Virus record (IMG/VR): IMGVR_UViG_3300030202_001666
Span: 393 to 64,392 of that record
Direction: 5' to 3' (one strand)
Source of the DNA: a virus
Taxonomy: Duplodnaviria > Caudoviricetes
Length of the DNA: 64,000 nt
In this document: positions 28,938 through 55,384 of the stretch, piece after piece
Numbering within the stretch: position 1 is the stretch's first letter
Layout of the letters: each line of letters starts with the position of its first letter
Program-made: the position numbers and the translations under genes
Notes under the pieces: generated by a model
Seen by the model: only the letters and a program-made list of their open reading frames with translations
The model's database searches: none
Told to the model about the DNA's origin: nothing

Positions 28938-29672
28938 TTAGTTAAATATTGCTACGCCAGTAAAATTACTTGTAAAATCTAATCGTACCTGGCTCACATT
29001 TAAATACGTTACTTTGCATTCAATCTCTTCAGTAGGTGCTGCGGTCGTCCCTAAACTTACACTTACGGATGGAAATTTATTTAGTCCGTGTGTCACCGTG
29101 TAACTATTGTTTCCAGTGAGTTGGGCACTTACTTCATTCTTATCCCCGCTACCACTACTATGATTTAGCAAAGATATAAAATAATCTTTATCTTCATTTA
29201 AGCTACCGTTACCCGCAACGTAAGTTAAATTCACTTCCCAAAACAACGGTTCACCCCCTTTAACATTGGCAGCCGTCCATGTGTATATAGCCCAATTTGT
29301 AATGTCATCACACTGGGTAAGTAATACTTGAGAACCTACCAATGGTGAGGTATACCAAGTTGATACATTTAATGACAACCCACCTTGATTTTCTGCATAC
29401 TGACTAAAAACAAGTTGAGTTATTCCAGATAATGATTGTGATACTGCTCCACCTCCAGGAAGAGTAATACTCATAGCTGGGCGTAACCCTACACCTTTTG
29501 TACTATATTGATATCTCAATAGTTGAGATTCTGCCCCTACTTTATTTATAAAGTTAGCGACATCTTGAGCTGTAAAGTTTTTGGTTTGAAAATCGTTTTG
29601 AGAATCCGATCCAATCCACTTATCAGCACCAACGACATTAGTATCATTAACGTATGTACTTATTCTTGCCAT
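28938..29672 (-). CDS. tail fibre adaptor/structural protein
   Basis: C-terminal TVTHGLNKFPSVSV domain similar to the C-terminus of 26579..28921. Confidence 0.55.
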   Translation of the reverse strand: MARISTYVNDTNVVGADKWIGSDSQNDFQTKNFTAQDVANFINKVGAESQLLRYQYSTKGVGLRPAMSITLPGGGAVSQSLSGITQLVFSQYAENQGGLSLNVSTWYTSPLVGSQVLLTQCDDITNWAIYTWTAANVKGGEPLFWEVNLTYVAGNGSLNEDKDYFISLLNHSSGSGDKNEVSAQLTGNNSYTVTHGLNKFPSVSVSLGTTAAPTEEIECKVTYLNVSQVRLDFTSNFTGVAIFN

Positions 29673-29675
29673 TAA

Positions 29676-30080
29676 TTATTTTTTTATTGATTTGCCTTTT
29701 TCATAACTACGTCCTCCGAAATATGCCGCGGTAATTGTAATAAGCAACATTTTCAAAAGTTCCTTCCATTCATCATCAACTGCAAAGTTAATAAATCCTG
29801 AGTCAATAAAGATAAGCACAACTGTGGATACAAATAAAAAAATTAAGGTTAGAGGTCTTACTGATTTTGACAACTTATTGTCCGATGCCATATCTGACTT
29901 CCACCTCTCAGTAACATTTTTTTGTTGCTCAGATTCTGCTTGTATAAAAATCTGAGTCATCTCTTTTTCAAACTGAGCCTTCTCATCTTTGGTTCTAACA
30001 AACTTATCTACCACGTTGGTTAGTTTATCTGCTACACCACCTGCAGCTCCTCCAAATATTTTAGCTAAAATTTCTTTCAT
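29676..30080 (-). CDS. holin (3TM/GTA-type holin family)
   Basis: RWKSDM.SD..LSKSVRP motif, two TM helices, AYFGGRSYEK end. Confidence 0.75.
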   Translation of the reverse strand: MKEILAKIFGGAAGGVADKLTNVVDKFVRTKDEKAQFEKEMTQIFIQAESEQQKNVTERWKSDMASDNKLSKSVRPLTLIFLFVSTVVLIFIDSGFINFAVDDEWKELLKMLLITITAAYFGGRSYEKGKSIKK

Positions 30081-30084
30081 AATA

Positions 30085-30366
30085 TTAACATTTCCATCTT
30101 CTTCGAGCTTGTCTTATTCTCGAATTAGGGTTATTTCTTGTTTTTGCACTACTTCTTTTTAACTGACCTAAACTTCTTGCACAATAAGACTTACGTCTTT
30201 TAGCAGATTTAGAACCTTTTTTTACTTTACCAGTAACAGCTCCTTTTAATTTTGAACCAGGATTAGCACGTCTATACGCAGCTATTCCTTTCTTGGTCAT
30301 TCCAGCTCCAGATTTTGTAGGTCGATAGTTTGCACCTTTTCCTTTTGTGGTTCTTCTTATTGCCAT
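30085..30366 (-). CDS. small highly basic protein
   Basis: 93 aa K/R-rich; GMTKKG...NPGSKL...RRKSYCARS...ARRRWKC. Confidence 0.7.
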   Translation of the reverse strand: MAIRRTTKGKGANYRPTKSGAGMTKKGIAAYRRANPGSKLKGAVTGKVKKGSKSAKRRKSYCARSLGQLKRSSAKTRNNPNSRIRQARRRWKC

Positions 30367-30596
30367 TATCTTACGCCTTTTACATTTCTAACAAACTGTT
30401 TTCCTTTAGCTCCTTCTCTTTTCTTTTTTTTTGCAGTAGCTCTAAGTTTACTTTTTGATAATCTTCTGGCTTTTGCTAATGGCAAACATCTATCTGGGTT
30501 CTTCTTGTTTTTAGAAGTACCACACTTGCCTTTGATTTTTCCATCAGTGCCTATTCGAACCCAATTCTGTTCACGCCATTTTTTTAATTCACCCAC
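30366..30596 (-). CDS. small basic protein
   Basis: LKKWREQNWV...CG...RCLP..KA; GTG start coupled to its neighbours. Confidence 0.7.
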   Translation of the reverse strand: MGELKKWREQNWVRIGTDGKIKGKCGTSKNKKNPDRCLPLAKARRLSKSKLRATAKKKKREGAKGKQFVRNVKGVR

Positions 30597-30802
30597 TACT
30601 TTTTCTTTTTCTTTTTTCTATTACTCATTTTGTTTAAGGCAACTTTCTTTGCAACTTTTTTAAAAACTTTTTTACCAATTTGAACAATGCCTTTACCCGC
30701 ACCTCCGACCAGTCCTAAACTACCAGAAGCTCCATATCTTTTTTTATGAGAAGCTGGAACAGGTAATATTTTACCTTTCGATTTTTTTTTAGGATACGCC
30801 AT
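30596..30802 (-). CDS. small basic protein
   Basis: K-rich, with an amphipathic IVQIGKKVFKKVAKKVAL helix. Confidence 0.6.
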   Translation of the reverse strand: MAYPKKKSKGKILPVPASHKKRYGASGSLGLVGGAGKGIVQIGKKVFKKVAKKVALNKMSNRKKKKKK

Positions 30803-31059
30803 TATTTGTTTGTTTTTATCTTAGTGCCTTTTGGTGTTTTTAATCCTTTTTTATTTTTTTGATAAAAACTAATTCTTGAATCTTTTTCAGCTTGAGCTTG
30901 TCTTCTTTTTCTTTTTTTACCAAGAACATTAGAAACATAAATACTATCACCTTTTGTTTTAGGTCTTCTCAAGCCGTACTCTTTAGTTATTCTTTTTATT
31001 TTAGAAGCACTAACAGATATTGGTTTTCTATGTGAACCGCCTTTACTTAATTTGCTCAT
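30802..31059 (-). CDS. small basic protein
   Basis: K/R-rich, coupled start/stop. Confidence 0.6.
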   Translation of the reverse strand: MSKLSKGGSHRKPISVSASKIKRITKEYGLRRPKTKGDSIYVSNVLGKKRKRRQAQAEKDSRISFYQKNKKGLKTPKGTKIKTNK

Positions 31060-31220
31060 TTTTTCTTTTTGTTTTTCATTTTTGCACCAGCTATTCTATC
31101 AGCCTTTGTGATGCCTGGGTTATTATCAATGCCAGCTTTTACACTTAACATACCAAACTTATCAATGTCTCGGTTTTTAAAACCTACACTATTATAATCT
31201 ACTTTTTTATTTTTTGCCAT
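31056..31220 (-). CDS. small basic protein (MAKNKKVDYN...KKKK, 54 aa)
   Basis: likely ATG at 31220 rather than 31304, because the upstream part is occupied by another ORF. Confidence 0.6.
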   Translation of the reverse strand: MAKNKKVDYNSVGFKNRDIDKFGMLSVKAGIDNNPGITKADRIAGAKMKNKKKK

Positions 31221-31359
31221 AATTAGGATCTTTACAATATTTACTTGCCGCCATATTTGCATAAGCTGACGGATACTTATCAAATGTTCTTTTAGCCCAA
31301 GCAATTCCCGCTGGACAAATTTTGTTTCCTTTTTTCTTTGCTCTACCTTTTTTTGCCAT
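31207..31359 (-). CDS. small basic protein missed by the ORF track (50 aa)
   Basis: hand translation MAKKGRAKKKGNKICPAGIAWAKRTFDKYPSAYANMAASKYCKDPNYGKK*. Confidence 0.7.
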   Translation of the reverse strand: MAKKGRAKKKGNKICPAGIAWAKRTFDKYPSAYANMAASKYCKDPNYGKK

Positions 31360-31576
31360 TACTTTTCTTTTTTTTAATTATACTTTTGCTTTTCTTTTTT
31401 GCATTTTTCATAAATGACTTCTGGTTTTTTCTAACTTTTCCACCAGATCTTTTCTGTCCTTCTTTATAAAAACCGTATAAAGTACTTGCTACTCCAATAG
31501 GACCGGCACGTTTAACTACTCTTGTTGCAACCTTTTTCGCCACAGCTTTTGCTAAACCTTTTTTATTTACTGGCAT
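31343..31576 (-). CDS. small basic protein
   Basis: K-rich amphipathic N-terminal helix. Confidence 0.6.
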   Translation of the reverse strand: MPVNKKGLAKAVAKKVATRVVKRAGPIGVASTLYGFYKEGQKRSGGKVRKNQKSFMKNAKKKSKSIIKKKKSNGKKR

Positions 31577-32034
31577 TATATAATTTTATATTTAGTTTTA
31601 CCTTCTTCTTTATATGCTTTCAAACATCTATTTCTATTCTCTTCTTCAGATACATACGAAACATGAATCCAATTAGGAGATACATCTGTACCAAACTCCC
31701 ATATAAGCTGATCAAAGTTTAAATTATCTTTAATCCAGTGATACATCTCAGCATTGGTTTTGTAGTTATATACATCATCCAAATCTAAAGCCTGTCCTTT
31801 ACAATGCTGACTGGAAGCTACCCCACCAATAGATTCATTCAAAGCTACCGATCTGAAAAACGAGTTAACTTTAATCGGTCCTCCTACCCATTCTCTCAAC
31901 GGTTCAAATATTTTTTCTGCCGTTACTTTCATTACTTCAACTTGTGAAGAATTAGGGGTGTTGTCTATTCCTTTTCTTTTAGCGGTGTTAGAATGAATAG
32001 CTTCTGCATAAGTAATATGTTGACTTATTTTCAT
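31576..32034 (-). CDS. endolysin, peptidase M15 family
   Basis: SFFRS..LN..IGG..SSQHCKGQALD and WIHVSY Zn-ligand motifs. Confidence 0.85.
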   Translation of the reverse strand: MKISQHITYAEAIHSNTAKRKGIDNTPNSSQVEVMKVTAEKIFEPLREWVGGPIKVNSFFRSVALNESIGGVASSQHCKGQALDLDDVYNYKTNAEMYHWIKDNLNFDQLIWEFGTDVSPNWIHVSYVSEEENRNRCLKAYKEEGKTKYKII

Positions 32035-33272
32035 AATTCAAGGTTAATTCCAAATGTTGATTTATATAATTCTGTATCCCAAAACTTAGTATACTCTCCT
32101 TCAATAAAAATACCTAACTTAGAAGTTAGATTCCAACCGAACATTAGTCCGAATTGCATATCATCCCACTGTTCAAGTTTAGAGTCTGGTTTTAATCCTC
32201 CCTTACCCCAATTGTTTCTATTTAAATAACTAACTGATTCATCTCCTTTAAAATAAGTGTGATATGGAAGAATATAATTTGCATAAGCATGACACCAGAA
32301 TTTATCAGTATAAGTATAATAATCAAATCCGACAATAGGGGCGTATTCAGCAAAAGCATCTAATAAATCCCATTGTTCATTATTGTATTGTAGCATTAAA
32401 TCTCCAAAGACTGTATTTCTAAACTCTAAATCACTATCAGCAACTATATTTCCATCTCCATCAATCCAATACCAGTCATATGTATTGTTGCCAAACTCGT
32501 CTTGTTGTGAATAATATATGTCATCGTAGCCATATAAAAAACCTAACTCATACCAGTAATTAACAGGATATTCTTCACCATTTATAATTTCTGTTTCATT
32601 TAACCATATTTCAATAGGATTATATCCATAAGCAGTTTGATGTGTACGTGCAATAATTCCAGCAGATATACTAAACTTTTTTCCTATTGGCAACCTTGCT
32701 CTTGCTTCTGCACTTTGATATTTAAATCCTACATTACCCTCTTCTCTGGATTCGATTTTAGCAATGTGATACTTACCCGTATGCCTAAGAAAGTAACGGT
32801 GATTTGAAAACACCTCACCTCGTTGTCTTTCTTTTTCAAAGTGAAACAAATACTCCCAACCATTTACAGCTGCCGTGGGAGCTGATAGTGCTACATTAGT
32901 TTCTGTTCCGTCATAGAAAGGCTTCTCTCTATTTTCATAGTCGAATCTTGCGATTCTCCTAATCCCAATTCCAAGTCTGTAATCGTGAGGAAAATATTCG
33001 GTAACATCAATAACTGTAGGTATATCATATAATCCTCCGTCTTCTGGAGGTCTAACAAAATAATCTTTTCTGGAAGTTTCATATGCATTTGAAATATCAC
33101 CAGCTACATATAGAGTTCCGTATTTAAAAAAATCTTTATAGATGTTTTTAAAAAAATTTTTTGTTTTATACTTTTTTACAATTTTGTTTTCTTGTTCTTT
33201 ATCAAAATCTATAACTTGAGTTTTAACATCAAAACACGTAAACAAAAAAATAATTAATAATATATATCTCAT
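32031..33272 (-). CDS. exported, putative outer-membrane beta-barrel protein
   Basis: N-terminal signal peptide; aromatic-rich alternating strands; ends GIFIEGEY...STFGINLEL. Confidence 0.55.
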   Translation of the reverse strand: MRYILLIIFLFTCFDVKTQVIDFDKEQENKIVKKYKTKNFFKNIYKDFFKYGTLYVAGDISNAYETSRKDYFVRPPEDGGLYDIPTVIDVTEYFPHDYRLGIGIRRIARFDYENREKPFYDGTETNVALSAPTAAVNGWEYLFHFEKERQRGEVFSNHRYFLRHTGKYHIAKIESREEGNVGFKYQSAEARARLPIGKKFSISAGIIARTHQTAYGYNPIEIWLNETEIINGEEYPVNYWYELGFLYGYDDIYYSQQDEFGNNTYDWYWIDGDGNIVADSDLEFRNTVFGDLMLQYNNEQWDLLDAFAEYAPIVGFDYYTYTDKFWCHAYANYILPYHTYFKGDESVSYLNRNNWGKGGLKPDSKLEQWDDMQFGLMFGWNLTSKLGIFIEGEYTKFWDTELYKSTFGINLEL

Positions 33273-33611
33273 TTAAAATTTATCTTTAACTAATTTGTCT
33301 ATTTCTTTTTGGATTAACTTTATAGAACCTTCAGGTAACTTCAAAGTTATATCACTCTCTACCTTTACTATAAGTTTTCTATTTTGATATAAACAAACAG
33401 TAGGTAAAAATTTTATTTTTTCCTTTTCAAAAATTTTAGGATGTTCCGATAAAGCTAAACGTAATAAGTCTGCTCCTTCTAATTTGCTAATATCTATTTC
33501 GTTAGCCTTAACGAAATCGGCAGAGTATTGTACAACAACAATACCGTCTTTATATGATTGAGCAAACGAAAGGGTTGGTATTAATAGTAATATAATAAAC
33601 CATAGTCTCAT
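33273..33611 (-). CDS. exported thioredoxin-like protein lacking CxxC
   Basis: signal peptide (SFA/Q); VVVQYSADF and IKFLPTVCLYQN resemble the Trx beta2 and cis-Pro regions. Confidence 0.5.
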   Translation of the reverse strand: MRLWFIILLLIPTLSFAQSYKDGIVVVQYSADFVKANEIDISKLEGADLLRLALSEHPKIFEKEKIKFLPTVCLYQNRKLIVKVESDITLKLPEGSIKLIQKEIDKLVKDKF

Positions 33612-33892
33612 CGTTCTTTTGTTATTTCGAAAATCCGATCCTCTAATTTACTTAGAGTTTCTTTCATTTCTTTTACATCTTCCTGAGTTGTCATAATAGC
33701 ATCACGTATTATTTGATCCTTATAAGTGAACTCAGTTTTAGTAACTTCTGGTTTTGGCATTTCCATTGCTTTCGCAATGTCAGCTTGAAGTACGAAATAC
33801 ATACTACATAGGGAGACAGTAAAGCCTACGATCATTGAGATTGTTTTTAAATCTAATGTAACTTTTGTGTCTTGTCCTATTTCTTGTGCCAT
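33608..33892 (-). CDS. single-TM coiled-coil membrane protein
   Basis: TM segment ISMIVGFTVSLCSMYFVL followed by a coiled coil. Confidence 0.6.
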   Translation of the reverse strand: MAQEIGQDTKVTLDLKTISMIVGFTVSLCSMYFVLQADIAKAMEMPKPEVTKTEFTYKDQIIRDAIMTTQEDVKEMKETLSKLEDRIFEITKER

Positions 33893-33893
33893 T

Positions 33894-34421
33894 TTACCAG
33901 ATTGCTATACAGTTATTATCGGCTACGTCAGTTGTTCCAGTTGCAAATAATTGAGTTATTTGTAAAGGAAGATACTCACCTACTGGAAAAGAACTAAATG
34001 TTATTATACTTCCAGCTACAGTTTTTACTTTTACGTCTACTCTTAATGTAGATGCATCATTAGAGCCTACATATAATAAACACCCTTCAGAACCATTAAT
34101 TCTTTGAGAACCATTTGGACCTCCCATAAAGATTAAGTAAACATCATTGGGTGCGTTTTTAAATATGTCTGCACTAAGACTAAGAATAGTTGAACTGTCT
34201 ACAGCAGTTACTGTAGCAGAAAAACCTGTTGCGGTATTATACACTATATCCCCAATACTCACTCCAGTAAAGTCAGCTGCAACTGCAACTAATTTACCTG
34301 CCGAGTCTGCGGAGTTAGGTCCAGTAAGGTTTGGTAATCCAGGGACTGGAATTGGAATTGTGTCACTGGCTATCACTTCAAGTGCTAATCCAGTATTGAC
34401 GGTTATTTTTGGGTATGCCAT
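33894..34421 (-). CDS. putative structural/decoration protein
   Basis: contains IGDIVYNT.TG..A.VTAVDS...LSLSA, also present in ring protein 10726..11721. Confidence 0.5.
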   Translation of the reverse strand: MAYPKITVNTGLALEVIASDTIPIPVPGLPNLTGPNSADSAGKLVAVAADFTGVSIGDIVYNTATGFSATVTAVDSSTILSLSADIFKNAPNDVYLIFMGGPNGSQRINGSEGCLLYVGSNDASTLRVDVKVKTVAGSIITFSSFPVGEYLPLQITQLFATGTTDVADNNCIAIW

Positions 34422-34450
34422 TTTTTTTAATTTAGAGGGTTAAAAATCTC

Positions 34451-34609
34451 TTATCTTTTGTATGGAAACATTCTATTGAGTGAATCCCTACGTTCATTGC
34501 ATCCGCAATTACCTTTAGTAACTTTGTCTACAACTTTTTTTATGCCAGTTGCTTTCGTGAATTTTTCTACTGTATCACCGAAACCTCTGGAAACTCTGGT
34601 TCTTTTCAT
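34451..34609 (-). CDS. small basic protein with CGC motif, missed by the track (52 aa)
   Basis: MKRTRVSRGFGDTVEKFTKATGIKKVVDKVTKGNCGCNERRDSLNRMFPYKR*. Confidence 0.7.
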   Translation of the reverse strand: MKRTRVSRGFGDTVEKFTKATGIKKVVDKVTKGNCGCNERRDSLNRMFPYKR

Positions 34610-34746
34610 TTTTTACAAATACATTCTGCCACAGGGCATTCGTTAACATCTACTATTAATTTGGATACTAATAAGTTCCACTTGCATAGAAATTTACACC
34701 ATGCTTTTTGTATCCAATATCCTATCTTTACAAAAAATTTTCCCAT
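34606..34746 (-). CDS. small Cys/Trp-rich amphipathic protein, missed by the track (46 aa)
   Basis: MGKFFVKIGYWIQKAWCKFLCKWNLLVSKLIVDVNECPVAECICKK*; ATGA-coupled. Confidence 0.6.
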   Translation of the reverse strand: MGKFFVKIGYWIQKAWCKFLCKWNLLVSKLIVDVNECPVAECICKK

Positions 34747-34932
34747 TTATTTTTTTAATTTATTTAAATCAGGAGGCAACCTATCTATTCTTCTCGGAAT
34801 ATACGGCATTTCAATATGTGAAGGTGTCGCTTTTATTTCCGTAGGCTTATTCTCCTTTTTTGCTTTTATTATACTTTCTTTTTTTGCAACTACCTTTTTT
34901 TTAGGTGTTGCTTTTTTTTTGCTTTTTGCCAT
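34747..34932 (-). CDS. small basic protein
   Basis: histone H1-like KKATPKKK start. Confidence 0.6.
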   Translation of the reverse strand: MAKSKKKATPKKKVVAKKESIIKAKKENKPTEIKATPSHIEMPYIPRRIDRLPPDLNKLKK

Positions 34933-34947
34933 TTAATTTAAATTTAA

Positions 34948-35109
34948 TTACTTTCTTTTTGCCTTACCCTTTACTCTTTTGAGTTTTGGGTTTTTTCTTT
35001 TAGCCTTGGCACTTGCTTTTCTTGAAGCCGAAGCTAAAATAGCTGAGGCTGCTTTTTTGGAGTATCCTCCTTTTCTTGCAATTTTGGCTGCTACTTTTTT
35101 AAAACTCAT
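34948..35109 (-). CDS. small basic protein missed by the track (53 aa)
   Basis: MSFKKVAAKIARKGGYSKKAASAILASASRKASAKAKRKNPKLKRVKGKAKRK*. Confidence 0.7.
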   Translation of the reverse strand: MSFKKVAAKIARKGGYSKKAASAILASASRKASAKAKRKNPKLKRVKGKAKRK

Positions 35110-35112
35110 AGC

Positions 35113-35313
35113 TTATTTTCTAAAACTGTGCTTATGAATCTTTTGTACGTGTCTGTAAGACATTCCTTTGTCAGCACCATATGCGTGTCCGTATTTTTTC
35201 TTGGACATTGCTTTGCTTTCGTCTCTTCTATCTTTGAAAGATTGAGAGTGTTTTCCTTTATGTCTTCCACCTAATGATTCGTCAAGACGTGAGTTATAAC
35301 CTTGCTTTTTCAT
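35113..35313 (-). CDS. small basic protein
   Basis: KQGYNSRLDESLG...QSFKDRRDESKAM. Confidence 0.65.
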   Translation of the reverse strand: MKKQGYNSRLDESLGGRHKGKHSQSFKDRRDESKAMSKKKYGHAYGADKGMSYRHVQKIHKHSFRK

Positions 35314-35343
35314 AATTTAAAATTTGTTAATTAATAATAAGAA

Positions 35344-35351
35344 CAAAGATA
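35344..35351 (-). promoter_or_regulatory. -7 promoter element TATCTTTG
   Basis: TAnnTTTG match in a gap inside the basic-protein array. Confidence 0.6.
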
Positions 35352-35372
35352 ATAATAAAAATATATTATTAT

Positions 35373-35690
35373 TTAGTTCCATCTGCCATCAAACTCTCTA
35401 CGTTTTTGTCCACGTATAGAATCTAATTTTTTCTTATAGGCTCTTTTTTCTTTTCTTTTACGTAAAGCCTTTTTAATAATACTTTCCTTTTTCTTTTTCG
35501 GTTTAGTTTTTTTAGTAGTGCTTAACTTTTTAGGACCAAGACTTTTCATCTTAGCCATGCTCTTAACTTTTCCTGCACCAGAAGGTTTGGTTCTGGATTT
35601 GGATTTGCTTACTTTCTTTTTTCTACCTAAAGCATTAACCGAAACAAAAGTTTCGTTTTTCTTTAACAATTTATTTTTTCTGTCTGGCAT
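35373..35690 (-). CDS. small basic protein
   Basis: 105 aa, extremely Lys-rich. Confidence 0.6.
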   Translation of the reverse strand: MPDRKNKLLKKNETFVSVNALGRKKKVSKSKSRTKPSGAGKVKSMAKMKSLGPKKLSTTKKTKPKKKKESIIKKALRKRKEKRAYKKKLDSIRGQKRREFDGRWN

Positions 35691-35926
35691 TAGTTTCTTC
35701 TTCTTCTTCTTCTTCCTCTTCCAGAAGATGGATTAACTGCACATCCTACAACCTTACGGCCTCTGTATATTCTGTTCTTACGAGAACAACCTCTTGCTTT
35801 GCCTTCAAGTTTTCTGGCTTTATCAAGTTTGCGTTCCATTTTTTTGATCTTACCTTTGCCTCTGGCCTTATTAGCTTGATCGTACTTTTTATCTGCTCTA
35901 CGCATTAACCTTTCGTATCTTGGCAT
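35690..35926 (-). CDS. small basic, protamine-like protein
   Basis: Arg-rich, ends GRGRRRRRRN. Confidence 0.6.
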   Translation of the reverse strand: MPRYERLMRRADKKYDQANKARGKGKIKKMERKLDKARKLEGKARGCSRKNRIYRGRKVVGCAVNPSSGRGRRRRRRN

Positions 35927-35932
35927 AATTTT

Positions 35933-36220
35933 TTATTTTTTTAGTTTTCTACTTGCTTTACTTATTTTTCTTTTAGCAGCAACTCTTTTTCTTGCCGCAG
36001 ATTTATAAAGTCGATTAATTTCGGAAACCTTCTTTCTGTCAGAAACAGAAAGTCCTTTTAATTTTTTAGTTCGGAGCACCTCGTATTTTTTTGCACCAAG
36101 TTTCTTTTTAAGCTGTGAAGCTAATGTATTTCTTTTAATATCTTTTTTGTCAGCCTTCATAGATTTTCTACTTGCTGCGTTTAATTTACGAACTGCTTTT
36201 TTTGTTTTATGTCCTGGCAT
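35933..36220 (-). CDS. small basic protein
   Basis: K/R/A-rich helical. Confidence 0.6.
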   Translation of the reverse strand: MPGHKTKKAVRKLNAASRKSMKADKKDIKRNTLASQLKKKLGAKKYEVLRTKKLKGLSVSDRKKVSEINRLYKSAARKRVAAKRKISKASRKLKK

Positions 36221-36585
36221 TATGATCTTTTTTTACGTTTTGGATAACTTCTTTTTGCTGTAACTGCTTTAGCTACATTCTGTATTCCTTTAGCTGCTTT
36301 ACTTACACTGCCTTTTTTAATTGCACTGTATGTAGACGCGGCTGCCGTGGCTATCTTGCCCAGCTTACTTCCTTTGATTCTGTCTACTTTCTTTTTAACT
36401 TTAGCGGCTGCTTTTTTAACTTTACCTACAGCTCTACCTGATCCTGTCTTGCCAGTCTTAATAATTTTACCAGCTCTTTTGGATAAACGTGCAGCTTTAT
36501 TAGCTTTACCTTTAACTGCTGCTTTTGTAGTTTTTTTTCTTAGTTTGCTTAACCTGCGTTTAGCGGCTTTTGTCATTGTCGGCAT
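36220..36585 (-). CDS. histone H1-like basic protein
   Basis: 121 aa K/A-rich, almost no acidic residues. Confidence 0.6.
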   Translation of the reverse strand: MPTMTKAAKRRLSKLRKKTTKAAVKGKANKAARLSKRAGKIIKTGKTGSGRAVGKVKKAAAKVKKKVDRIKGSKLGKIATAAASTYSAIKKGSVSKAAKGIQNVAKAVTAKRSYPKRKKRS

Positions 36586-36586
36586 A

Positions 36587-36694
36587 TTAGTATTTTTTAG
36601 ATTTTACTTTCTTACCTACTTTCTTAGCGTAACTTTTTGCAGCTTTTTTTCCTTTAGCTGTATACGAAAACTTTTTCTTTCCTACTTGCGGCAT
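36587..36694 (-). CDS. small basic protein missed by the track (35 aa), first gene of the operon
   Basis: MPQVGKKKFSYTAKGKKAAKSYAKKVGKKVKSKKY*. Confidence 0.65.
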   Translation of the reverse strand: MPQVGKKKFSYTAKGKKAAKSYAKKVGKKVKSKKY

Positions 36695-36712
36695 GATATT
36701 TTTATTTTAAGT

Positions 36713-36731
36713 TATATTTGTAACAAAGATA
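36713..36731. promoter_or_regulatory. face-to-face pair of -7 elements: TATATTTG (+, 36713-36720) and TATCTTTG (-, 36724-36731)
   Basis: near-palindrome TATATTTG-TAA-CAAAGATA between divergent genes. Confidence 0.65.
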
Positions 36732-36744
36732 CAAATTAATTCTA

Positions 36745-37209
36745 ATGAAATTTAAAGGCGTAACAAACCGATCAAGGACCTCACGCACAAAACCTAATCA
36801 CGATTATTTAAAATACTGGCGTGTCATAAGGTACTGGGTAAAAGCTAAATACAAGTTAGGCACTCCAGAACTTGAAATGCTTTTGTTTCTATACAGTGAA
36901 CAAATTTTTAATAAAAGCCAATTCAAACATTATGAAGAATTAATGTCTTGGGATATAAAAAGATTTAATTATTTACTAAAAGAAGATTGGATACATGTAT
37001 GGAGAAAGCGTAAAGGAAATGAAACAACTTTATATGAATTAACGTATAAAGGAAAAAGAGTAATCAATACTATTTATAAAAAATTAAATGGTGAAGAGAT
37101 TGCCGAGACCTCAACAAATAATCCCCTATTTAGATTCGATGCTTCCTATATGGATAAAGTTTATAGGAATATGATTGTAGAAATGAATCAAGAAATCAAA
37201 CAACAATAA
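36745..37209 (+). CDS. winged-helix (MarR-like) DNA-binding protein
   Basis: LGTPELEMLLFL...LLKEDWI...YELTYKGK wHTH pattern; the only convincing plus-strand gene in the late region. Confidence 0.6.
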   Translation: MKFKGVTNRSRTSRTKPNHDYLKYWRVIRYWVKAKYKLGTPELEMLLFLYSEQIFNKSQFKHYEELMSWDIKRFNYLLKEDWIHVWRKRKGNETTLYELTYKGKRVINTIYKKLNGEEIAETSTNNPLFRFDASYMDKVYRNMIVEMNQEIKQQ

Positions 37210-37453
37210 CTACGTTTCTTTCTTCTATTATTGTAAATGTTTCATCTTCTATTAGCATAGAATGTCCAGATGATTTGTCATAGTAAATAGTGTCACCTTC
37301 TTTAATTACTTCAACTCTATTACCTGGATTAATTACTTTACCCTTGTGGTATCTAAAAGATTCAACATCTGCACTGGATAATAAAAGTCCAGAATCCGTT
37401 TTGTACTCTTCGTTTATTTTTTTAATTACTATGTATTTACCTATTGCCTGCAT
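37196..37453 (-). CDS. groES: co-chaperonin GroES
   Basis: IGKYIVIK...TDSGLLLS mobile loop, GKVINPG, IKEGDTIYY. Confidence 0.85.
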   Translation of the reverse strand: MQAIGKYIVIKKINEEYKTDSGLLLSSADVESFRYHKGKVINPGNRVEVIKEGDTIYYDKSSGHSMLIEDETFTIIEERNVVIVV

Positions 37454-37643
37454 GTCTTCTATCTAATTCTTTTTTTATAACTGATTTTTTTCTTTTATAA
37501 GATGGGTTAGTATAATATTTTTCCAGTTCTTCTGTAGATGTACTGGCAATAGTATAATGTTTCCATCTCCACTTCTGCATCATCCTACCATTTGCATCTC
37601 TTTGGTATTCTTTAGTGCTTGGCTTTAATTTAGGAGACGACAT
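37437..37643 (-). CDS. hypothetical protein
   Basis: 68 aa ORF overlapping the groES start. Confidence 0.5.
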   Translation of the reverse strand: MSSPKLKPSTKEYQRDANGRMMQKWRWKHYTIASTSTEELEKYYTNPSYKRKKSVIKKELDRRHAGNR

Positions 37644-37758
37644 TTTTTTCTTTGTATTTAATTATTCTATATCCTCTGGACTCTAAATACTTTATGTACT
37701 CATCTTCTTTTTCTTTTTCTTTTCTGAAAGAACAAAATATTTCATTGTAAATTGGCAT
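37630..37758 (-). CDS. hypothetical protein missed by the track (42 aa)
   Basis: MPIYNEIFCSFRKEKEKEDEYIKYLESRGYRIIKYKEKNVVS*; fills the gap after groEL. Confidence 0.45.
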   Translation of the reverse strand: MPIYNEIFCSFRKEKEKEDEYIKYLESRGYRIIKYKEKNVVS

Positions 37759-37763
37759 AACTT

Positions 37764-39389
37764 TTATTTTTTAGTTTCTTCTCTATTTCCAATACGTGCA
37801 TGTGTAACAATTGCGTTAGTGCTTAGTATTGTTGTTGCTACAGAAACTGCATTAATAAGTGCATTCTTTGTAACCTTTAATGGATCAATGATTCCCATTT
37901 TGAACATATCTCCATACTCTTCGTTCTTAACATCATAACCGTAGTTCTTTGTTCCGTAAGGACCTACGCCTAAATTTAATGTTACTGACTCAATATCTTT
38001 TCCTGCATTAATTAATATTTGGTGCAGTGGTGATCTTATTGCTTCACATATTATATCTACTGCTGCATTGTAATCTTCATTGTCTGATCTATCTGCATCT
38101 AAGTCAACAGCTATTTTCCATAATGCTAATCCACCCCCAGGTATTATACCTTCTTCAAGAGCTGAACGAACAGCACACACCGAGTCATCGACTCGGTCAA
38201 ATTTTTCTTTTTGTTCAACGTCAGAGTTTCCACCTACATATATACAACCGATAGCTCCAGCTAAACTTGCTATTCTTTGATTTATAAATTCAATCTCTGC
38301 TGGTCCAGTACAATTACTTTGGTATTCCTTCAGTTCTTGAATACGATTATCAATCTCTTCAGTTAGTGCAGCGTGTTTGATAATAACAGATGAGTTCTTT
38401 CCTACTATTATTTTATCTGCGTATCCAAGATCAGATGGTTGTATTAAACTTAAATCGTCCCCAGTTTTTTCTGAATAGTATTTTGCTCCAACAGATATTG
38501 CAATGTCTTGCATTAGTTCATGTTGTTTATATCCGAAGTTAGGAGGGATGATGTTACACAACTTTAATCCGTTTCGCATAACATTCGCGGCTAAAGTATT
38601 TATAACATTAGTGGAACACGTTCCAATAATTAATAGCTTTTGGTTTTTTTGAATGATTGGTTTTAAAACATTTTCGATTTGTAGTATGTTACTAATCTCA
38701 GTATCACAAACTAATACTTTCACATCTTCCAATATACATTCGTCTTTACGTTGGTTATTTATAAATAGGTTTGAAGTGTAACCTCTATCAATTCTAATTC
38801 CGTTTGTTACTTCCGCGTATGTCTCGGCATTCATAGATTTTTCTACAGTAACAATTCCACTATGACCAACACGGTTGTATGCATCAGAAATAATCTTACC
38901 AATTTCTTTATCACCGTTGGCAGATATAGAAGCAACATCTAATAGTCGAGACTTAGTAATCTTCTTTGATTGTTTTTTTAATTTCGCTAATACTTCCTGG
39001 GTTAATTTATTTATATGTTTTATAACTTCAGTAACATTATGTTTTGGTTTTAAAATTTTATCCCCAGCTTTAATAATGTTTTCAGTTAACACAATTGCAG
39101 TAGTCGTTCCATCACCCGCAACATTGGCAGTACGAAGTGCTGCATCCTTCATCATTTGGATTGCTAAGTTTTCTACGGCATCATCTAAGTATACCGAGTG
39201 TGCAACTGTGACTCCGTCTTTAGTAATTGTTATTCCCGCTAAGTGATCTGTGGATTCTATTAGTACAGTTTTCCCGCGTGGGCCGAGTGTACTCTTTACG
39301 GCTTTAGAAATTTTAGAGATTCCTGAAATTAATTTTTCTCGCCCTTCCTTACCGAAGTCGAGATTCTTTGGTATATATCCTTGTGACAT
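37764..39389 (-). CDS. groEL: chaperonin GroEL (phage-encoded)
   Basis: STLGPRG, ITKDGVTVA, AGDGTTTA, GIIPGGG and GIIDPLKV motifs; no GGM tail. Confidence 0.95.
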   Translation of the reverse strand: MSQGYIPKNLDFGKEGREKLISGISKISKAVKSTLGPRGKTVLIESTDHLAGITITKDGVTVAHSVYLDDAVENLAIQMMKDAALRTANVAGDGTTTAIVLTENIIKAGDKILKPKHNVTEVIKHINKLTQEVLAKLKKQSKKITKSRLLDVASISANGDKEIGKIISDAYNRVGHSGIVTVEKSMNAETYAEVTNGIRIDRGYTSNLFINNQRKDECILEDVKVLVCDTEISNILQIENVLKPIIQKNQKLLIIGTCSTNVINTLAANVMRNGLKLCNIIPPNFGYKQHELMQDIAISVGAKYYSEKTGDDLSLIQPSDLGYADKIIVGKNSSVIIKHAALTEEIDNRIQELKEYQSNCTGPAEIEFINQRIASLAGAIGCIYVGGNSDVEQKEKFDRVDDSVCAVRSALEEGIIPGGGLALWKIAVDLDADRSDNEDYNAAVDIICEAIRSPLHQILINAGKDIESVTLNLGVGPYGTKNYGYDVKNEEYGDMFKMGIIDPLKVTKNALINAVSVATTILSTNAIVTHARIGNREETKK

Positions 39390-55122: not shown

Positions 55123-55384
55123 TTAGTAATTTTGCAACCGTTTTTGAATCTCTAAGTTCTTTACAGATTTCATACTGCTCTACTGAATTAAAATACTCTA
55201 TCAAAATATCATATACATCATCCTCCATTGGAATATATTTTCTGGTAGGATTAAAAATAAAAGCACAACCTAAATCTTTTTCAAGTAGTTCTTCATGAGA
55301 CGATTTACCTGTCAACACTAAATAGCTATTATACATACAAGTGTACTCATCAAAATCTTCTATGTCGTAACTCTTCATTTTCAT
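55103..55384 (-). CDS. hypothetical protein
   Basis: 93 aa, coupled to the giant gene's stop. Confidence 0.55.
   Translation of the reverse strand: MKMKSYDIEDFDEYTCMYNSYLVLTGKSSHEELLEKDLGCAFIFNPTRKYIPMEDDVYDILIEYFNSVEQYEICKELRDSKTVAKLLINFQSF

What the first reader, a model, noticed from the sequence alone, without database searches (positions are those of the whole stretch)
30085..36694. Array of about 16 unrelated Lys/Arg-rich microproteins wrapped around the lysis genes
Seen: two blocks (30085-31576 with 7 genes; 34451-36694 with 10 genes, 9 of them basic) of 35-121 aa ORFs, tightly coupled by overlapping start/stop codons. Five are absent from the ORF track. They are driven by TAnnTTTG promoters at 36724 and 35344, are not copies of each other, and range from H1-like and protamine-like to amphipathic-helical. 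The holin and M15 endolysin border the first block, and I see no canonical lipoprotein spanin. Inference: candidates are a cocktail of cationic outer-membrane disruptors replacing spanins, DNA-condensing core proteins, or nucleic-acid/ribosome-binding host-takeover factors. I know of no defined system of this size.
Basis: partly seen in the sequence, partly recalled or inferred. Interest (0 to 1): 0.8.

Follow-up and report, generated by a model that had tools for sequence, protein, structure and literature searches.

The report
Conserved basic mini-protein genes in phage
A marine flavobacterial phage carries 17 real, tightly packed genes for tiny, strongly positively charged proteins from module families shared by the ocean's commonest phages; they are more likely carried in the virus particle than used to burst the cell.

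Summary
On the minus strand, 30085-31576 holds 7 ORFs and 34451-36694 holds 10 (35-121 aa). Sixteen are strongly basic. They are tightly coupled and are not paralogues of each other. ORF cover is 100% and 96%, against 19% and 17% in shuffles (0 of 1000). All 17 have homologues elsewhere. Families with many relatives show dN/dS of 0.05-0.28, as low as or lower than the neighbouring endolysin and structural gene. The TAnnTTTG promoter motif before the 35313 gene recurs in 34 of 44 relatives.

The "unrelated orphans" reading is wrong. The set includes DUF6321, apparently both halves of a split DUF5872, and a module found in 731 cluster representatives. These modules are shared with pelagiphages and cyanophages and are often fused into polybasic multi-module proteins.

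The link to lysis genes looks local to this lineage. In other lineages DUF6321 sits next to the capsid gene (12 of 19 well-flanked loci) more often than next to lysis genes (4 of 19). In cyanophage S-SCSM1 a 517-aa DUF6321 protein is labelled "virion protein" in a record backed by virion mass spectrometry.

My best reading (about 0.45) is late-made cationic proteins carried in the virion, probably bound to DNA. The spanin-replacement idea fits at most one to three members. No function is shown directly.

The parts
36724..36731 (-). TATCTTTG, a Bacteroidetes-type -7 promoter motif in front of the first gene of block 2. A divergent TATATTTG lies at 36713-36720 (+).
   Evidence: locates the motif. 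It sits in the 501-nt gap that also holds the divergent gene. The same motif lies within 70 nt upstream of 3 of 5 homologues of the 121-aa gene and 2 of 4 homologues of the 35-aa gene.
36587..36694 (-). 35-aa basic protein (net +14)
   Evidence: phrog_33179, E 8.2e-8. Found in 4 of 64 related loci at 53-86% identity.
36220..36585 (-). 121-aa basic protein (net +41) with Ala/Lys-rich arms and a conserved core
   Evidence: Found in 5 of 64 loci at 33-67% identity, dN/dS 0.35. Part of a 328-aa polybasic ORF in L053.
35933..36220 (-). 95-aa basic protein (net +32)
   Evidence: Found in 5 of 64 loci at 35-47% identity, dN/dS 0.33.
35690..35926 (-). 78-aa basic protein (net +26) with an Arg-run tail and 2 Cys
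   Evidence: Found in 3 of 64 loci at 60-84% identity.
35373..35690 (-). 105-aa basic protein (net +35)
   Evidence: Found in 4 of 64 loci, with a conserved C-terminal motif. One population SNP, synonymous. A contig from an RNA library covers 35551-35686.
35344..35351 (-). TATCTTTG, an internal promoter motif 31 nt upstream of the 66-aa gene
   Evidence: locate it. The motif is present upstream of 34 of 44 homologues at -26 to -39, against a background of 5.6%.
35113..35313 (-). 66-aa basic protein (net +13); the 'QGYN-RLDES' module
   Evidence: Found in 56 of 64 loci at 64-85% identity, dN/dS 0.12. 25 invariant columns. 731 cluster representatives at E<=1e-3, both standalone and as 1-3 modules inside proteins of 200-1113 aa.
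34948..35109 (-). 53-aa basic protein (net +21)
   Evidence: Found in 15 of 64 loci at 77-96% identity, dN/dS 0.07.
34747..34932 (-). 61-aa basic protein (net +14)
   Evidence: Found in 12 of 64 loci, dN/dS 0.26.
34606..34746 (-). 46-aa Trp- and Cys-rich protein (5 Cys, pI 9.1); the one weakly basic member
   Evidence: Found in 49 of 64 loci, dN/dS 0.22.
34451..34609 (-). 52-aa basic protein (net +10) with a CGC motif; always just upstream of the 175-aa gene
   Evidence: Found in 63 of 64 loci, dN/dS 0.12. phrog_27568, E 3e-4. tblastn hits in MW202828.1 and Microcystis phage Mel-JY01. One SNP, synonymous.
31343..31576 (-). 77-aa basic protein (net +26)
   Evidence: Found in 0 of 64 loci, but 4 clusters at 69-100% identity in the 5.8-billion-protein set, with 39 invariant columns.
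31207..31359 (-). 50-aa basic protein with a YPSAYAN motif and 2 invariant Cys. It resembles the N-terminal half of Pfam DUF5872.
   Evidence: phrog_27331, E 6.6e-21. Found in 26 of 64 loci at 81-96% identity, dN/dS 0.045. 29 invariant columns. BLASTP against P0004 gives E 1e-5; the DUF5872 N-terminal positions match P0004 only weakly.
31056..31220 (-). 54-aa basic protein (net +10). This is the corrected start of the listed 82-aa TTG ORF.
   Evidence: Homologues over the 54-aa part in 6 loci at 52-88% identity. The upstream 28 codons are a shadow frame. One SNP, synonymous.
30802..31059 (-). 85-aa basic protein (net +24)
   Evidence: Found in 2 of 64 loci at 32-38% identity. This is the least supported member.
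30596..30802 (-). 68-aa basic protein (net +23) with a Gly-rich non-polar stretch and an amphipathic helix. It is the only member resembling a membrane-active peptide.
   Evidence: Found in 0 of 64 loci, but 12 clusters at 53-96% identity, with 25 invariant columns. Hydrophobic moment 0.67, reached by 0 of 300 shuffles.
30366..30596 (-). 76-aa basic protein (GTG start) with a W..W motif and 2 invariant Cys. It resembles the C-terminal half of DUF5872.
   Evidence: phrog_23735, E 4e-26. Found in 28 of 64 loci at 67-92% identity, dN/dS 0.11. 33 invariant columns. hhalign to residues 64-128 of the S-SCSM1 virion protein gives E 4e-4, probability 35%. One SNP, synonymous.
30085..30366 (-). 93-aa DUF6321 protein (net +31, 2 invariant Cys)
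   Evidence: PF19846, 44.9 bits against a cut-off of 28.5. 70-77% nucleotide identity and up to 91% amino-acid identity to pelagiphage genes. Found in 41 of 64 loci, dN/dS 0.28.
29676..30080 (-). Context: 3-TM holin bordering block 1
   Evidence: PF11351, E 1.9e-6; phrog_3427, E 2.4e-23.
31576..32034 (-). Context: M15 endolysin bordering block 1
   Evidence: PF08291, E 1.7e-15; phrog_894, E 8.9e-29.

Best explanation
The 17 ORFs are genuine, co-oriented genes in the long minus-strand operon that also holds the structural and lysis genes. Transcription probably starts from two conserved host-type promoters.

They encode a lineage-variable selection from a pool of small cationic mini-domains that circulates among marine phages. 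The pool includes DUF6321, what look like the two halves of DUF5872 encoded as separate genes, the QGYN-RLDES module, and others. In other phages the same modules are strung together into polybasic multi-module proteins.

The most likely role is cargo carried in the virion. The proteins would be made late together with heads and taken into the particle, most plausibly into the capsid interior. There their roughly +360 charges per set would bind and partly neutralise packaged DNA. They may enter the next host with the DNA.

Shown: the ORFs are coding, they are under purifying selection, the promoter is conserved, the modules occur fused, they lie next to head and packaging genes in other lineages, and one DUF6321 fusion protein carries a virion label.

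Inferred: that this phage's own small proteins are packaged, that they sit inside the capsid, and that they bind DNA.
For: Coding and selection:
- ORF cover is far above shuffles.
- Median dN/dS is 0.045-0.28 for the nine families with 12-63 relatives. For comparison, the M15 endolysin gives 0.095 and the 175-aa neighbour 0.275.
- Several small proteins are 77-96% identical across loci whose 175-aa neighbour is only 33-65% identical.
- All 4 population SNPs in small ORFs are synonymous; overall 10 of 13 are.
- The two apparent orphans have 4 and 12 homologous clusters.

Pool and fusions:
- 2724 proteins of 164-2000 aa hold DUF6321. Its partners include the YPSAYAN domain, the DUF5872 C-terminal half, a second DUF6321 and other basic modules.
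- Relatives carry 161-328 aa polybasic ORFs that contain the same modules.
- The b2_66 module occurs 1-3 times inside proteins of 200-1113 aa.

Place in other lineages:
- In L112, L117 and L157 the order is capsid, beta-rich protein, DUF6321, YPSAYAN, W..W, KGG-repeat basic protein, then further structural genes.
- Of 80 DUF6321 loci, 32 hold an HTVC023P-type capsid gene and 20 hold a 3-TM holin or M15. Among the 19 loci with at least 4 kb on both sides the counts are 12 and 4.
- HTVC023P has DUF6321 three genes after the capsid gene.
- In Phage C75C1 the array lies between the major head protein and the head closure protein.
- In cyanophage S-SM2, DUF6321 ends a 708-aa protein that lies between the small and large terminase genes.

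Virion evidence:
- S-SCSM1 ORF29 (517 aa) has DUF6321 at residues 445-515, E 3e-22. Its product name is 'virion protein', in a record that marks other proteins as '(virion protein)'.
- The S-SCSM1 paper reports 45 proteins by mass spectrometry of CsCl-purified virions (PMC9602691, passages read).
- The same ORF aligns to the b1_76 family (E 4e-4) and carries the PSAYA motif.
- S-SCSM1 ORFs 93 and 97 (69 and 61 aa, basic) are also labelled virion protein.
- In Cellulophaga phage phi38:1, gp069 (113 aa, K+R 0.28) and gp080 (101 aa, K+R 0.32) are annotated as structural proteins. gp080 lies three genes upstream of the endolysin gene.
Against: - No virion data exist for this phage or for any standalone small member of these families.
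- The S-SCSM1 peptides may come from other parts of the 517-aa protein. Which ORFs were detected is given only in the paper's figure and supplement, which I could not see, so the link rests on the record's product names.
- The phi38:1 structural proteins are not homologous to the window's proteins (no tblastn hit at E<=0.01).
- Proteins that condense DNA are usually low in complexity and evolve fast. Here b1_50, b1_76 and b2_66 have 25-33 invariant positions, which points to a more specific partner.
- In the window, HTVC010P and HTVC027P the genes do sit beside the holin or endolysin.
- The capsid and lysis probes differ in sensitivity.
- The AF2 models are only moderate (pLDDT 67.6 and 72.3) and have no informative structural neighbour.
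Confidence: 0.45

Rival explanations
1. They are late-made intracellular helpers that are not packaged. As small cationic proteins they would bind nucleic acid or the assembly machinery in the infected cell. Possible jobs include condensing or presenting DNA for the terminase, chaperoning head assembly, or modulating late transcription or translation.
For: The genes lie in the same late, structural and packaging neighbourhoods. High positional conservation suggests a specific and universal partner. The near-identity between phages whose hosts belong to different phyla (91% amino-acid identity to pelagiphage genes) fits a target common to all cells or to phage machinery.
Against: The DUF6321 fusion protein carries a virion label in S-SCSM1. 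Small basic proteins are labelled virion or structural in S-SCSM1 and phi38:1. There are no Pfam hits to ribosomal, histone-like or HU-type families at E<=0.1.
Confidence: 0.25
2. They are lysis accessories. Some or all would act as cationic peptides that attack the outer membrane once the holin and endolysin have acted, replacing spanins as gp28 of coliphage phiKT does.
For: Block 1 lies between the M15 endolysin and the 3-TM holin. Similar neighbourhoods occur in HTVC010P, HTVC023P, HTVC027P and C75C1. No lipobox spanin was seen in the region by eye. The 68-aa protein at 30596-30802 has a strongly amphipathic helix next to a non-polar Gly-rich stretch. phiKT gp28 is a 56-aa cationic amphipathic peptide that complements a spanin defect (10.1101/515445, abstract read).
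Against: Twelve of 17 proteins are no more amphipathic than their own shuffles, and most of their best segments are very polar. In relatives the block-1 families lie away from the endolysin, inside the block-2 position, for example in L038, L040 and L044. Across lineages DUF6321 lies next to lysis genes in 4 of 19 well-flanked loci, roughly what chance gives for a 12-kb window in a 35-60 kb genome. DUF5872 occurs in a giant algal virus. Fusion into 200-1100 aa proteins is unlike antimicrobial peptides. Relatives carry ORFs that look like unimolecular spanins (L061 7157-7336, L012 9668-9838). The window also has a TM plus coiled-coil protein and two signal-peptide proteins between the blocks.
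Confidence: 0.1
3. The set has no single function. It would be a recombination hot spot where small, cheap, portable genes of several unrelated roles collect (virion cargo, fibre or assembly helpers, lysis, anti-defence), and the shared basic charge would reflect A-rich codon usage as much as function.
For: The families are unrelated to each other. Membership varies greatly between relatives, from 63 of 64 loci down to 2 of 64, and order and position vary too. The coding strand is 45-46% A. The 46-aa and 52-aa Cys-containing pair always accompanies the 175-aa gene, which hints at a separate role.
Against: The same modules are repeatedly fused to one another in single polypeptides, which argues for joint action. 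DUF6321 co-occurs with the b1_76 family in 31 of 80 loci and with the b1_50 family in 25 of 80, across lineages that lack the 175-aa gene.
Confidence: 0.15
4. They are non-coding by-products of A-rich sequence.
For: The coding strand is 45-46% A. The weakest member (30802-31059) has only 2 distant relatives, with dN/dS 0.76.
Against: as set out above.
Confidence: 0.01

Closest known systems
Pfam DUF6321 (PF19846), including S-SCSM1 ORF29 'virion protein'
   Same: The 93-aa protein at 30085-30366 is a full-length match above the curated cut-off. The family is confined to marine phages in the cultured collection: 46 Synechococcus, 17 Pelagibacter and 4 Prochlorococcus records out of 73.
   Different: Here the domain stands alone as a 93-aa protein. 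In cyanomyophages it ends proteins of 104-856 aa. The family has no described function, and a full-text search for 'DUF6321' found 0 papers.
Pfam DUF5872 (PF19197), first described from giant viruses
   Same: The model's positions 1-53 carry the YPSAYAN-type domain and positions 49-111 carry the W..W/Cys domain. The window encodes look-alikes of both, as do HTVC023P and HTVC027P, where they are adjacent genes.
   Different: The window's two proteins do not reach any Pfam score. They are separate genes with two other genes between them. The relation rests on motifs, one BLASTP at E 1e-5 and an hhalign at E 4e-4.
Phage T4 internal proteins IPI-III and their hypervariable locus (recalled from general knowledge, not from a call)
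   Same: Small basic proteins, a gene set that varies between relatives, made late, packaged with DNA and injected.
   Different: The 17 proteins share no N-terminal capsid-targeting sequence (N-termini listed; 6 of 17 start with Met-Pro). There is no sequence similarity, and packaging is not shown here.
Core proteins of eukaryotic dsDNA viruses (adenovirus VII and mu, baculovirus P6.9, ascovirus P64)
   Same: Small or modular cationic proteins that condense the genome in the particle (PMC6163548, abstract seen in the listing). The module junctions here, a hydrophobic residue then A-[KHR]-G-G, recall the Gly-Gly-X precursor cleavage sites of adenovirus and ASFV (recalled, not tested).
   Different: These are tailed phages, which pump DNA into a preformed head. 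No cleavage or protease is shown, and there is no homology.
phiKT gp28 'disruptin' (10.1101/515445)
   Same: Small, cationic, lacking a signal sequence, and encoded by a phage without an obvious spanin.
   Different: Only the 68-aa protein at 30596-30802 combines an amphipathic helix with a non-polar face. The rest are polar or Cys-stabilised mini-domains.

Membership tests
DUF6321 (PF19846) | Match to the Pfam model above the gathering score | tested here: met
   30085-30366: 44.9 bits against a cut-off of 28.5, model positions 6-72 of 72.
DUF5872 (PF19197) | Match to the Pfam model above the gathering score | tested here: not met
   31207-31359 and 30366-30596 give no hit at E<=10. Related proteins reach 25.5 bits (L117, below the 27.5 cut-off) and 44.6 bits (P0054).
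DUF5872 (PF19197) | Both halves present (YPSAYAN-type domain plus W..W/two-Cys domain) | tested here: inconclusive
   Both motifs are present in separate genes. BLASTP of b1_50 against P0004 gives E 1e-5 over 23 residues. b1_76 against P0054 aligns over only 9 residues.
Disruptin (phiKT gp28 type) | Short cationic peptide with an amphipathic helix able to sit in a membrane | tested here: inconclusive
   Charge and size fit all 17. The hydrophobic moment exceeds that of own shuffles (at most 4% of shuffles reach it) in 5 of 17. Only 30596-30802 also has mean hydrophobicity near 0.
Disruptin (phiKT gp28 type) | Complements a spanin defect and disrupts the outer membrane | not testable with these tools
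   This needs a lysis assay.
Spanins (two-component or unimolecular) | Lipoprotein signal with a lipobox Cys (o-spanin or u-spanin), or an N-terminal TM plus periplasmic coiled coil (i-spanin) | tested here: not met
   None of the 17 has a signal peptide or a TM segment by eye. The longest stretch free of K, R, D, E, Q, N, H and P is 14 residues. No predictor was run.
T4-type internal proteins | Shared N-terminal capsid-targeting sequence removed by the prohead protease | tested here: not met
   N-termini listed show no common motif beyond Met-Pro in 6 of 17.
Histone H1, HU-type or ribosomal proteins | Match to the corresponding Pfam models | tested here: not met
   No such family at E<=0.1 for any of the 17. 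Profile searches of three families against PDB sequences found nothing meaningful.
Virion proteins | Detected in purified particles | not testable with these tools
   Only indirect evidence exists: a DUF6321 fusion protein labelled virion protein in S-SCSM1.

The most novel reading that the evidence does not exclude
The most abundant tailed phages of the ocean (pelagiphages, cyanophages, flavophages) package their DNA together with a modular, fast-shuffling set of protamine-like mini-proteins, a kind of phage 'chromatin'. The modules are encoded either as separate microgenes, as here, or as polyproteins. The polyproteins would be cut at conserved hydrophobic-A-[KHR]-G-G junctions into the same pieces, much as adenovirus and ASFV process their core proteins.
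Probability: 0.25. Interest if true: 0.85.

Novelty: new variant of a known kind. Interest (0 to 1): 0.6.

Why it matters
These families are numerous in marine viral data:
- DUF6321 occurs in at least 538 IMG/VR stretches and in 2724 longer proteins.
- The b2_66 module occurs in 731 cluster representatives.
- Cultured pelagiphages and cyanophages carry them.

None of them has a described function. They are short and Lys/Arg-rich, so gene callers with length cut-offs miss them and trypsin-based virion proteomics is likely to miss them too.

If they are packaged DNA-binding cargo, that would change the usual picture of tailed-phage heads as holding essentially naked DNA. It would also bear on genome ejection, capsid pressure, protection of incoming DNA from host nucleases, and the nitrogen cost of a virion in oligotrophic seas.

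The window phage holds the largest set seen here, 15 by a uniform count against 5-13 in relatives. That makes it a good catalogue of the modules.

Tried and rejected
- Complex prediction on the 50-aa and 76-aa proteins, as possible halves of a split DUF5872: score 0.01, no verdict. This is not evidence either way.
- AF2 of DUF6321 (pLDDT 67.6) and of the 76-aa protein (pLDDT 72.3), followed by Foldseek against PDB and VIA-align wide: the best results were E 7.4 with Z 4.9, and E 5.8 with Z 2.9. These are generic helical matches only. BFVD returned only other DUF6321 proteins.
- Profile searches of three families against PDB sequences found nothing meaningful.
- The ESM Atlas returned only DUF6321 clusters.
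- Pfam on ten large proteins that hold the b2_66 module: 0 families.
- tblastn of the 66-aa protein against cultured phages: no match at E<=1e-3.
- Narrow HMMs of this clade's holin and M15 found few hits in the 80 DUF6321 loci (4 and 2). I added pelagiphage probes. Sensitivity still differs between probes.
- Loci found with the 413-aa protein (19 loci, about 50% identity) mostly lacked the arrays and had a different gene order. The 175-aa protein proved the better anchor.
- E. coli-type sigma-70 and terminator scans were at chance level.
- RNA-library contigs (X19, X20; one study) cover parts of both blocks with 0-2 differences. DNA carry-over cannot be excluded, no silent control stretch was laid, and uncovered parts say nothing.
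- The Holmfeldt 2013 paper, tried under a PMC id recalled from memory, is not held. Supplements of PMC9602691 and PMC5335546 were not available. I therefore could not see the per-ORF mass-spectrometry list or the per-gene timing of phi38:1.

Full report
WHAT THE WINDOW IS. The window is nearly all of a 64,392-base IMG/VR virus record rated 100% complete. Its 491-aa structural protein matches podophages of Flavobacteriia: Flavobacterium 'elemo' phages, Cellulophaga phages, Maribacter phage Panino and a freshwater relative, MW202828.1. Cellulophaga phage phi38:1 is classified in Pervagoviridae. The minus strand from about 39.4 kb down to 0 carries the following genes in order:
- GroEL and GroES
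- block 2 (10 small ORFs)
- a 175-aa acidic protein with a weak tail-fibre PHROG hit
- a 94-aa TM plus coiled-coil protein
- a 112-aa signal-peptide protein
- a 413-aa signal-peptide protein
- the M15 endolysin
- block 1 (7 small ORFs)
- a 3-TM holin
- fibre-like proteins, the terminase, the portal and the other structural genes

There are 17 small ORFs of 35-121 aa. Sixteen have K+R of 0.23-0.41 and pI of 10.1-12.0, and the summed net charge is +359. Neighbouring genes are separated by -17 to +15 nt. The only exceptions are two gaps that carry TATCTTTG motifs. Same-strand ORF cover is 100% and 96%, against 19+-11% and 17+-9% in dinucleotide shuffles, and 0 of 1000 shuffles reach the observed value. 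With composition correction the 17 proteins show no similarity to each other. One correction is needed. The 82-aa TTG ORF is a 54-aa ATG gene at 31056-31220, and its upstream part is the shadow frame of the adjacent, highly conserved 50-aa gene (dN/dS 2.06 for those hits).

THEY ARE GENES UNDER SELECTION. I used the 175-aa protein as an anchor and fetched 64 related IMG/VR loci. tblastn found the small proteins in this many loci, by length of the window protein:

| Protein (aa) | Loci of 64 |
|---|---|
| 52 | 63 |
| 66 | 56 |
| 46 | 49 |
| 93 | 41 |
| 76 | 28 |
| 50 | 26 |
| 53 | 15 |
| 61 | 12 |
| 121 | 5 |
| 95 | 5 |
| 105 | 4 |
| 35 | 4 |
| 78 | 3 |
| 85 | 2 |
| 68 | 0 |
| 77 | 0 |

The true 54-aa gene has relatives in 6 loci.

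Several small proteins are far more conserved than the anchor. The 50-aa protein is 81-96% identical and the 53-aa protein 77-96%, against 33-65% for the 175-aa protein. Nei-Gojobori medians are given below, with synonymous sites near saturation.

| Protein | Median dN/dS |
|---|---|
| 50 aa | 0.045 |
| 53 aa | 0.07 |
| 76 aa | 0.11 |
| 52 aa | 0.12 |
| 66 aa | 0.12 |
| 46 aa | 0.22 |
| 61 aa | 0.26 |
| 93 aa | 0.28 |
| M15 endolysin | 0.095 |

HSPs chosen by protein similarity bias these values downward, but the contrast with saturated synonymous sites is robust.

The two apparent orphans have 4 and 12 homologous clusters in the 5.8-billion-protein set, with 39 and 25 invariant columns.

Near-identical DNA occurs in marine metagenomes of several studies (16 runs hold half or more of the sampled words). 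The few population SNPs are synonymous in all 4 cases inside small ORFs, and in 10 of 13 overall. Contigs from two metatranscriptome libraries of one study cover parts of both blocks. This is compatible with transcription but does not prove it.

PROMOTERS. TAnnTTTG is not enriched in the window as a whole (115 sites against 102+-9.5 expected). Its position, however, is conserved. It lies 26-39 nt upstream of the start in 34 of 44 distinct homologues of the 66-aa gene. It also precedes 3 of 5 homologues of the 121-aa gene and 2 of 4 homologues of the 35-aa gene. By contrast it precedes 0 of 49, 0 of 22 and 0 of 31 homologues of three internal genes, and the background is 5.6%. That this motif is the Bacteroidetes -7 element is recalled knowledge.

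THEY ARE NOT ORPHANS BUT MEMBERS OF A MARINE-PHAGE MODULE POOL.
- The 93-aa protein is DUF6321 (44.9 bits). It is 70-77% identical in DNA and up to 91% identical in protein to genes of Pelagibacter phages HTVC027P, 100P, 010P, 023P and the Skadi phages. In cultured phages the domain occurs in 73 records, all marine: 46 Synechococcus, 17 Pelagibacter and 4 Prochlorococcus. IMG/VR holds at least 538 relatives.
- The 76-aa, 50-aa, 35-aa and 52-aa proteins hit PHROGs of unknown function.
- 2724 longer proteins carry DUF6321. Its fusion partners are other small basic modules. They include a YPSAYAN domain that matches positions 1-49 of Pfam DUF5872, and a W..W domain that matches positions 49-111.
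- The window's 50-aa and 76-aa proteins look like these two halves encoded separately, as in HTVC023P gp51/gp52 and HTVC027P gp49/gp50. They do not reach Pfam significance, so I do not file them as members.
- DUF5872 is listed in a giant algal virus genome (PMC12085832, table passage).
- The 66-aa module occurs in 731 cluster representatives. Of the 150 listed, 76 are 110 aa or shorter and 57 are 200 aa or longer, with 1-3 modules each.
- Relatives of the window phage fuse the same modules into 161-328 aa polybasic ORFs.
- By one uniform count the window has 15 small basic ORFs, against a median of 8 (range 5-13) in 27 relatives with loci of at least 12 kb.

WHERE THE FAMILIES LIVE. The window places block 1 between the endolysin and the holin. 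HTVC010P, HTVC023P, HTVC027P and C75C1 also have a 3-TM holin or an M15 nearby. Within the window's own clade, however, the block-1 families often lie inside the block-2 position (for example L038, L040, L044). In other lineages the array follows the capsid gene. In L112, L117 and L157 the order is capsid, beta-rich protein, DUF6321, YPSAYAN, W..W, a KGG-repeat basic protein, then further structural genes. HTVC023P has the capsid gene, two beta-rich proteins, then DUF6321.

Of 80 DUF6321 loci, 32 contain this capsid type and 20 contain a 3-TM holin or M15. Among the 19 loci with at least 4 kb on both sides the counts are 12 and 4. The b1_76 and b1_50 families co-occur with DUF6321 in 31 and 25 of the 80 loci. 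In cyanomyophage S-SM2, DUF6321 ends a 708-aa protein that lies between the two terminase genes.

VIRION EVIDENCE (INDIRECT). S-SCSM1 ORF29 is 517 aa and its product is named 'virion protein'. It has DUF6321 at residues 445-515 (E 3e-22). It aligns to the 76-aa family at residues 64-128 (hhalign E 4e-4, probability 35%) and contains the PSAYA motif between two Cys (E 0.012, weak). The paper reports 45 proteins detected by mass spectrometry of CsCl-purified virions and marks them in a figure (PMC9602691, passages read). I could not see the per-ORF list. Two small basic S-SCSM1 proteins (69 and 61 aa) carry the same label. In phi38:1, gp069 (113 aa, K+R 0.28) and gp080 (101 aa, K+R 0.32) are annotated as structural proteins by similarity to a relative that was tested by proteomics. 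gp080 lies three genes upstream of the endolysin gene. In phi38:1 the capsid, tail-fibre and amidase genes are late genes (PMC5335546, passages read).

WHAT ARGUES AGAINST A SPANIN SUBSTITUTE. Only 5 of 17 proteins have an 18-residue segment more amphipathic than 96% of their own shuffles. Only the 68-aa protein combines this with a non-polar face. The 93-, 76- and 50-aa families have two invariant cysteines each and 8-33 invariant columns. That looks like small folded domains stabilised by a disulfide or a metal. My inference is that this would suit an extracellular, virion-borne life. Relatives have ORFs that look like unimolecular spanins.

MECHANISM I COMMIT TO (confidence 0.45). The proteins are made late and carried in the virion as cationic cargo, most plausibly bound to DNA inside the capsid. 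The modules are interchangeable as separate genes or as fusions. The rivals are intracellular late helpers that are not packaged (0.25), a mixed bag with no common function (0.15), lysis accessories (0.10, mainly the 68-aa and 77-aa proteins) and artefact (0.01).

A LEAD WORTH FOLLOWING. In the multi-module proteins the modules are preceded by a conserved junction: a hydrophobic residue, then A-[KHR]-G-G. 'GG' lies within 10 residues upstream of 61 of 102 QGYN-module starts (background 11%) and within 22 residues of 79 of 107 DUF6321 starts (background 22%). The standalone proteins of the window start within a residue or two of where the fused modules begin after the G-G. This is what one would expect if the polyproteins were cut there into the same pieces. 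It recalls the Gly-Gly-X processing of adenovirus and ASFV core proteins, which is recalled knowledge. No protease or cleavage is shown.

LIMITS. No structural neighbour was found for the two folded families. The complex prediction gave no verdict. Full-text searches for 'DUF6321' found 0 papers and for 'DUF5872' found 1 paper, so I know of no functional study in the held library.

Noticed in passing
Proteins P0040 and P0043 (metagenomic): An insert of about 247 aa, beginning with Cys and ending in Asn followed by Ser, interrupts the YP|SAYAN motif exactly. Removing it restores the sequence of P0004. This looks like an intein in a tiny basic domain, which would mark that motif as functionally critical. 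The Pfam Intein_splicing match is only E 0.14.
   Followed up: partly
P0138-P0286 and P0001-P0120: Modules in the polybasic multi-module proteins are preceded by a conserved junction: a hydrophobic residue, then A-[KHR]-G-G. It occurs at 61 of 102 and 79 of 107 module starts, against backgrounds of 11% and 22%. The standalone genes begin just after the equivalent point. The junction may be a cleavage site or simply a linker.
   Followed up: partly
window 31221-31304 (-): The first 28 codons of the listed 82-aa TTG ORF are conserved only as the out-of-frame shadow of the 50-aa gene (dN/dS about 2). This is a useful warning for ORF lists in overlapping microgenes.
   Followed up: yes
window 32031-33892 (-): This is a conserved cassette. 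It holds a 94-aa protein with an N-terminal TM and a coiled coil, a 112-aa protein with a cleavable-looking signal peptide, and a 413-aa protein with a signal or lipobox-like N-terminus (LFTC). The 413-aa protein has no Pfam or PHROG hit. The 413-aa and 94-aa genes occur together in 18 of 19 loci, but in the opposite order. They could be the envelope-disruption genes of these phages.
   Followed up: no
L061 7157-7336; L012 9668-9838: ORFs of 56-59 aa with a lipoprotein-type N-terminus (Cys after a hydrophobic stretch) and a C-terminal hydrophobic segment, which looks like a unimolecular spanin. They lie next to the 413-aa or 94-aa homologues in relatives. No counterpart was seen in the window.
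   Followed up: no
window 34451-34746 (-) with 33894-34421 (-): The Cys-containing 46-aa and 52-aa proteins always sit directly upstream of the 175-aa acidic protein (49 and 63 of 64 loci), and also in freshwater MW202828.1. The 52-aa protein has a tblastn hit in Microcystis phage Mel-JY01. They may form a separate unit, perhaps a fibre or assembly helper.
   Followed up: no
L112 7226-7453; L157 7708-7905; L117 7045-7458: Genes made almost entirely of K-G-G-type repeats (K+R up to 0.37, no acidic residues) lie in the same arrays after the capsid gene in other marine podophage contigs.
   Followed up: no
P0043, and HTVC027P gp44 (L002 6067-6333): One recurrent module has a D-L-T-G-D-G-K-V-T-x-x-D stretch that resembles a calcium-binding loop of the EF-hand or dockerin type (resemblance recalled, not tested).
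   Followed up: no
window 55381-63999 (-) and 37196-39389 (-): An ORF of more than 2870 aa runs off the window end. The phage also encodes its own GroEL and GroES pair, as do its relatives.
   Followed up: no
NC_021796.1 notes for gp069, gp077 and gp080: The record bases 'structural protein' on similarity to 'phi18:1_gp69/77/80'. A later paper says phi18:1 encodes only 67 proteins (PMC11946311, passage).
   Followed up: no
window 29600-37300: Near-identical sequence, with 0-2 differences per contig, recurs in marine metagenomes of several studies dated 2014-2020. This phage population is widespread and stable.
   Followed up: partly
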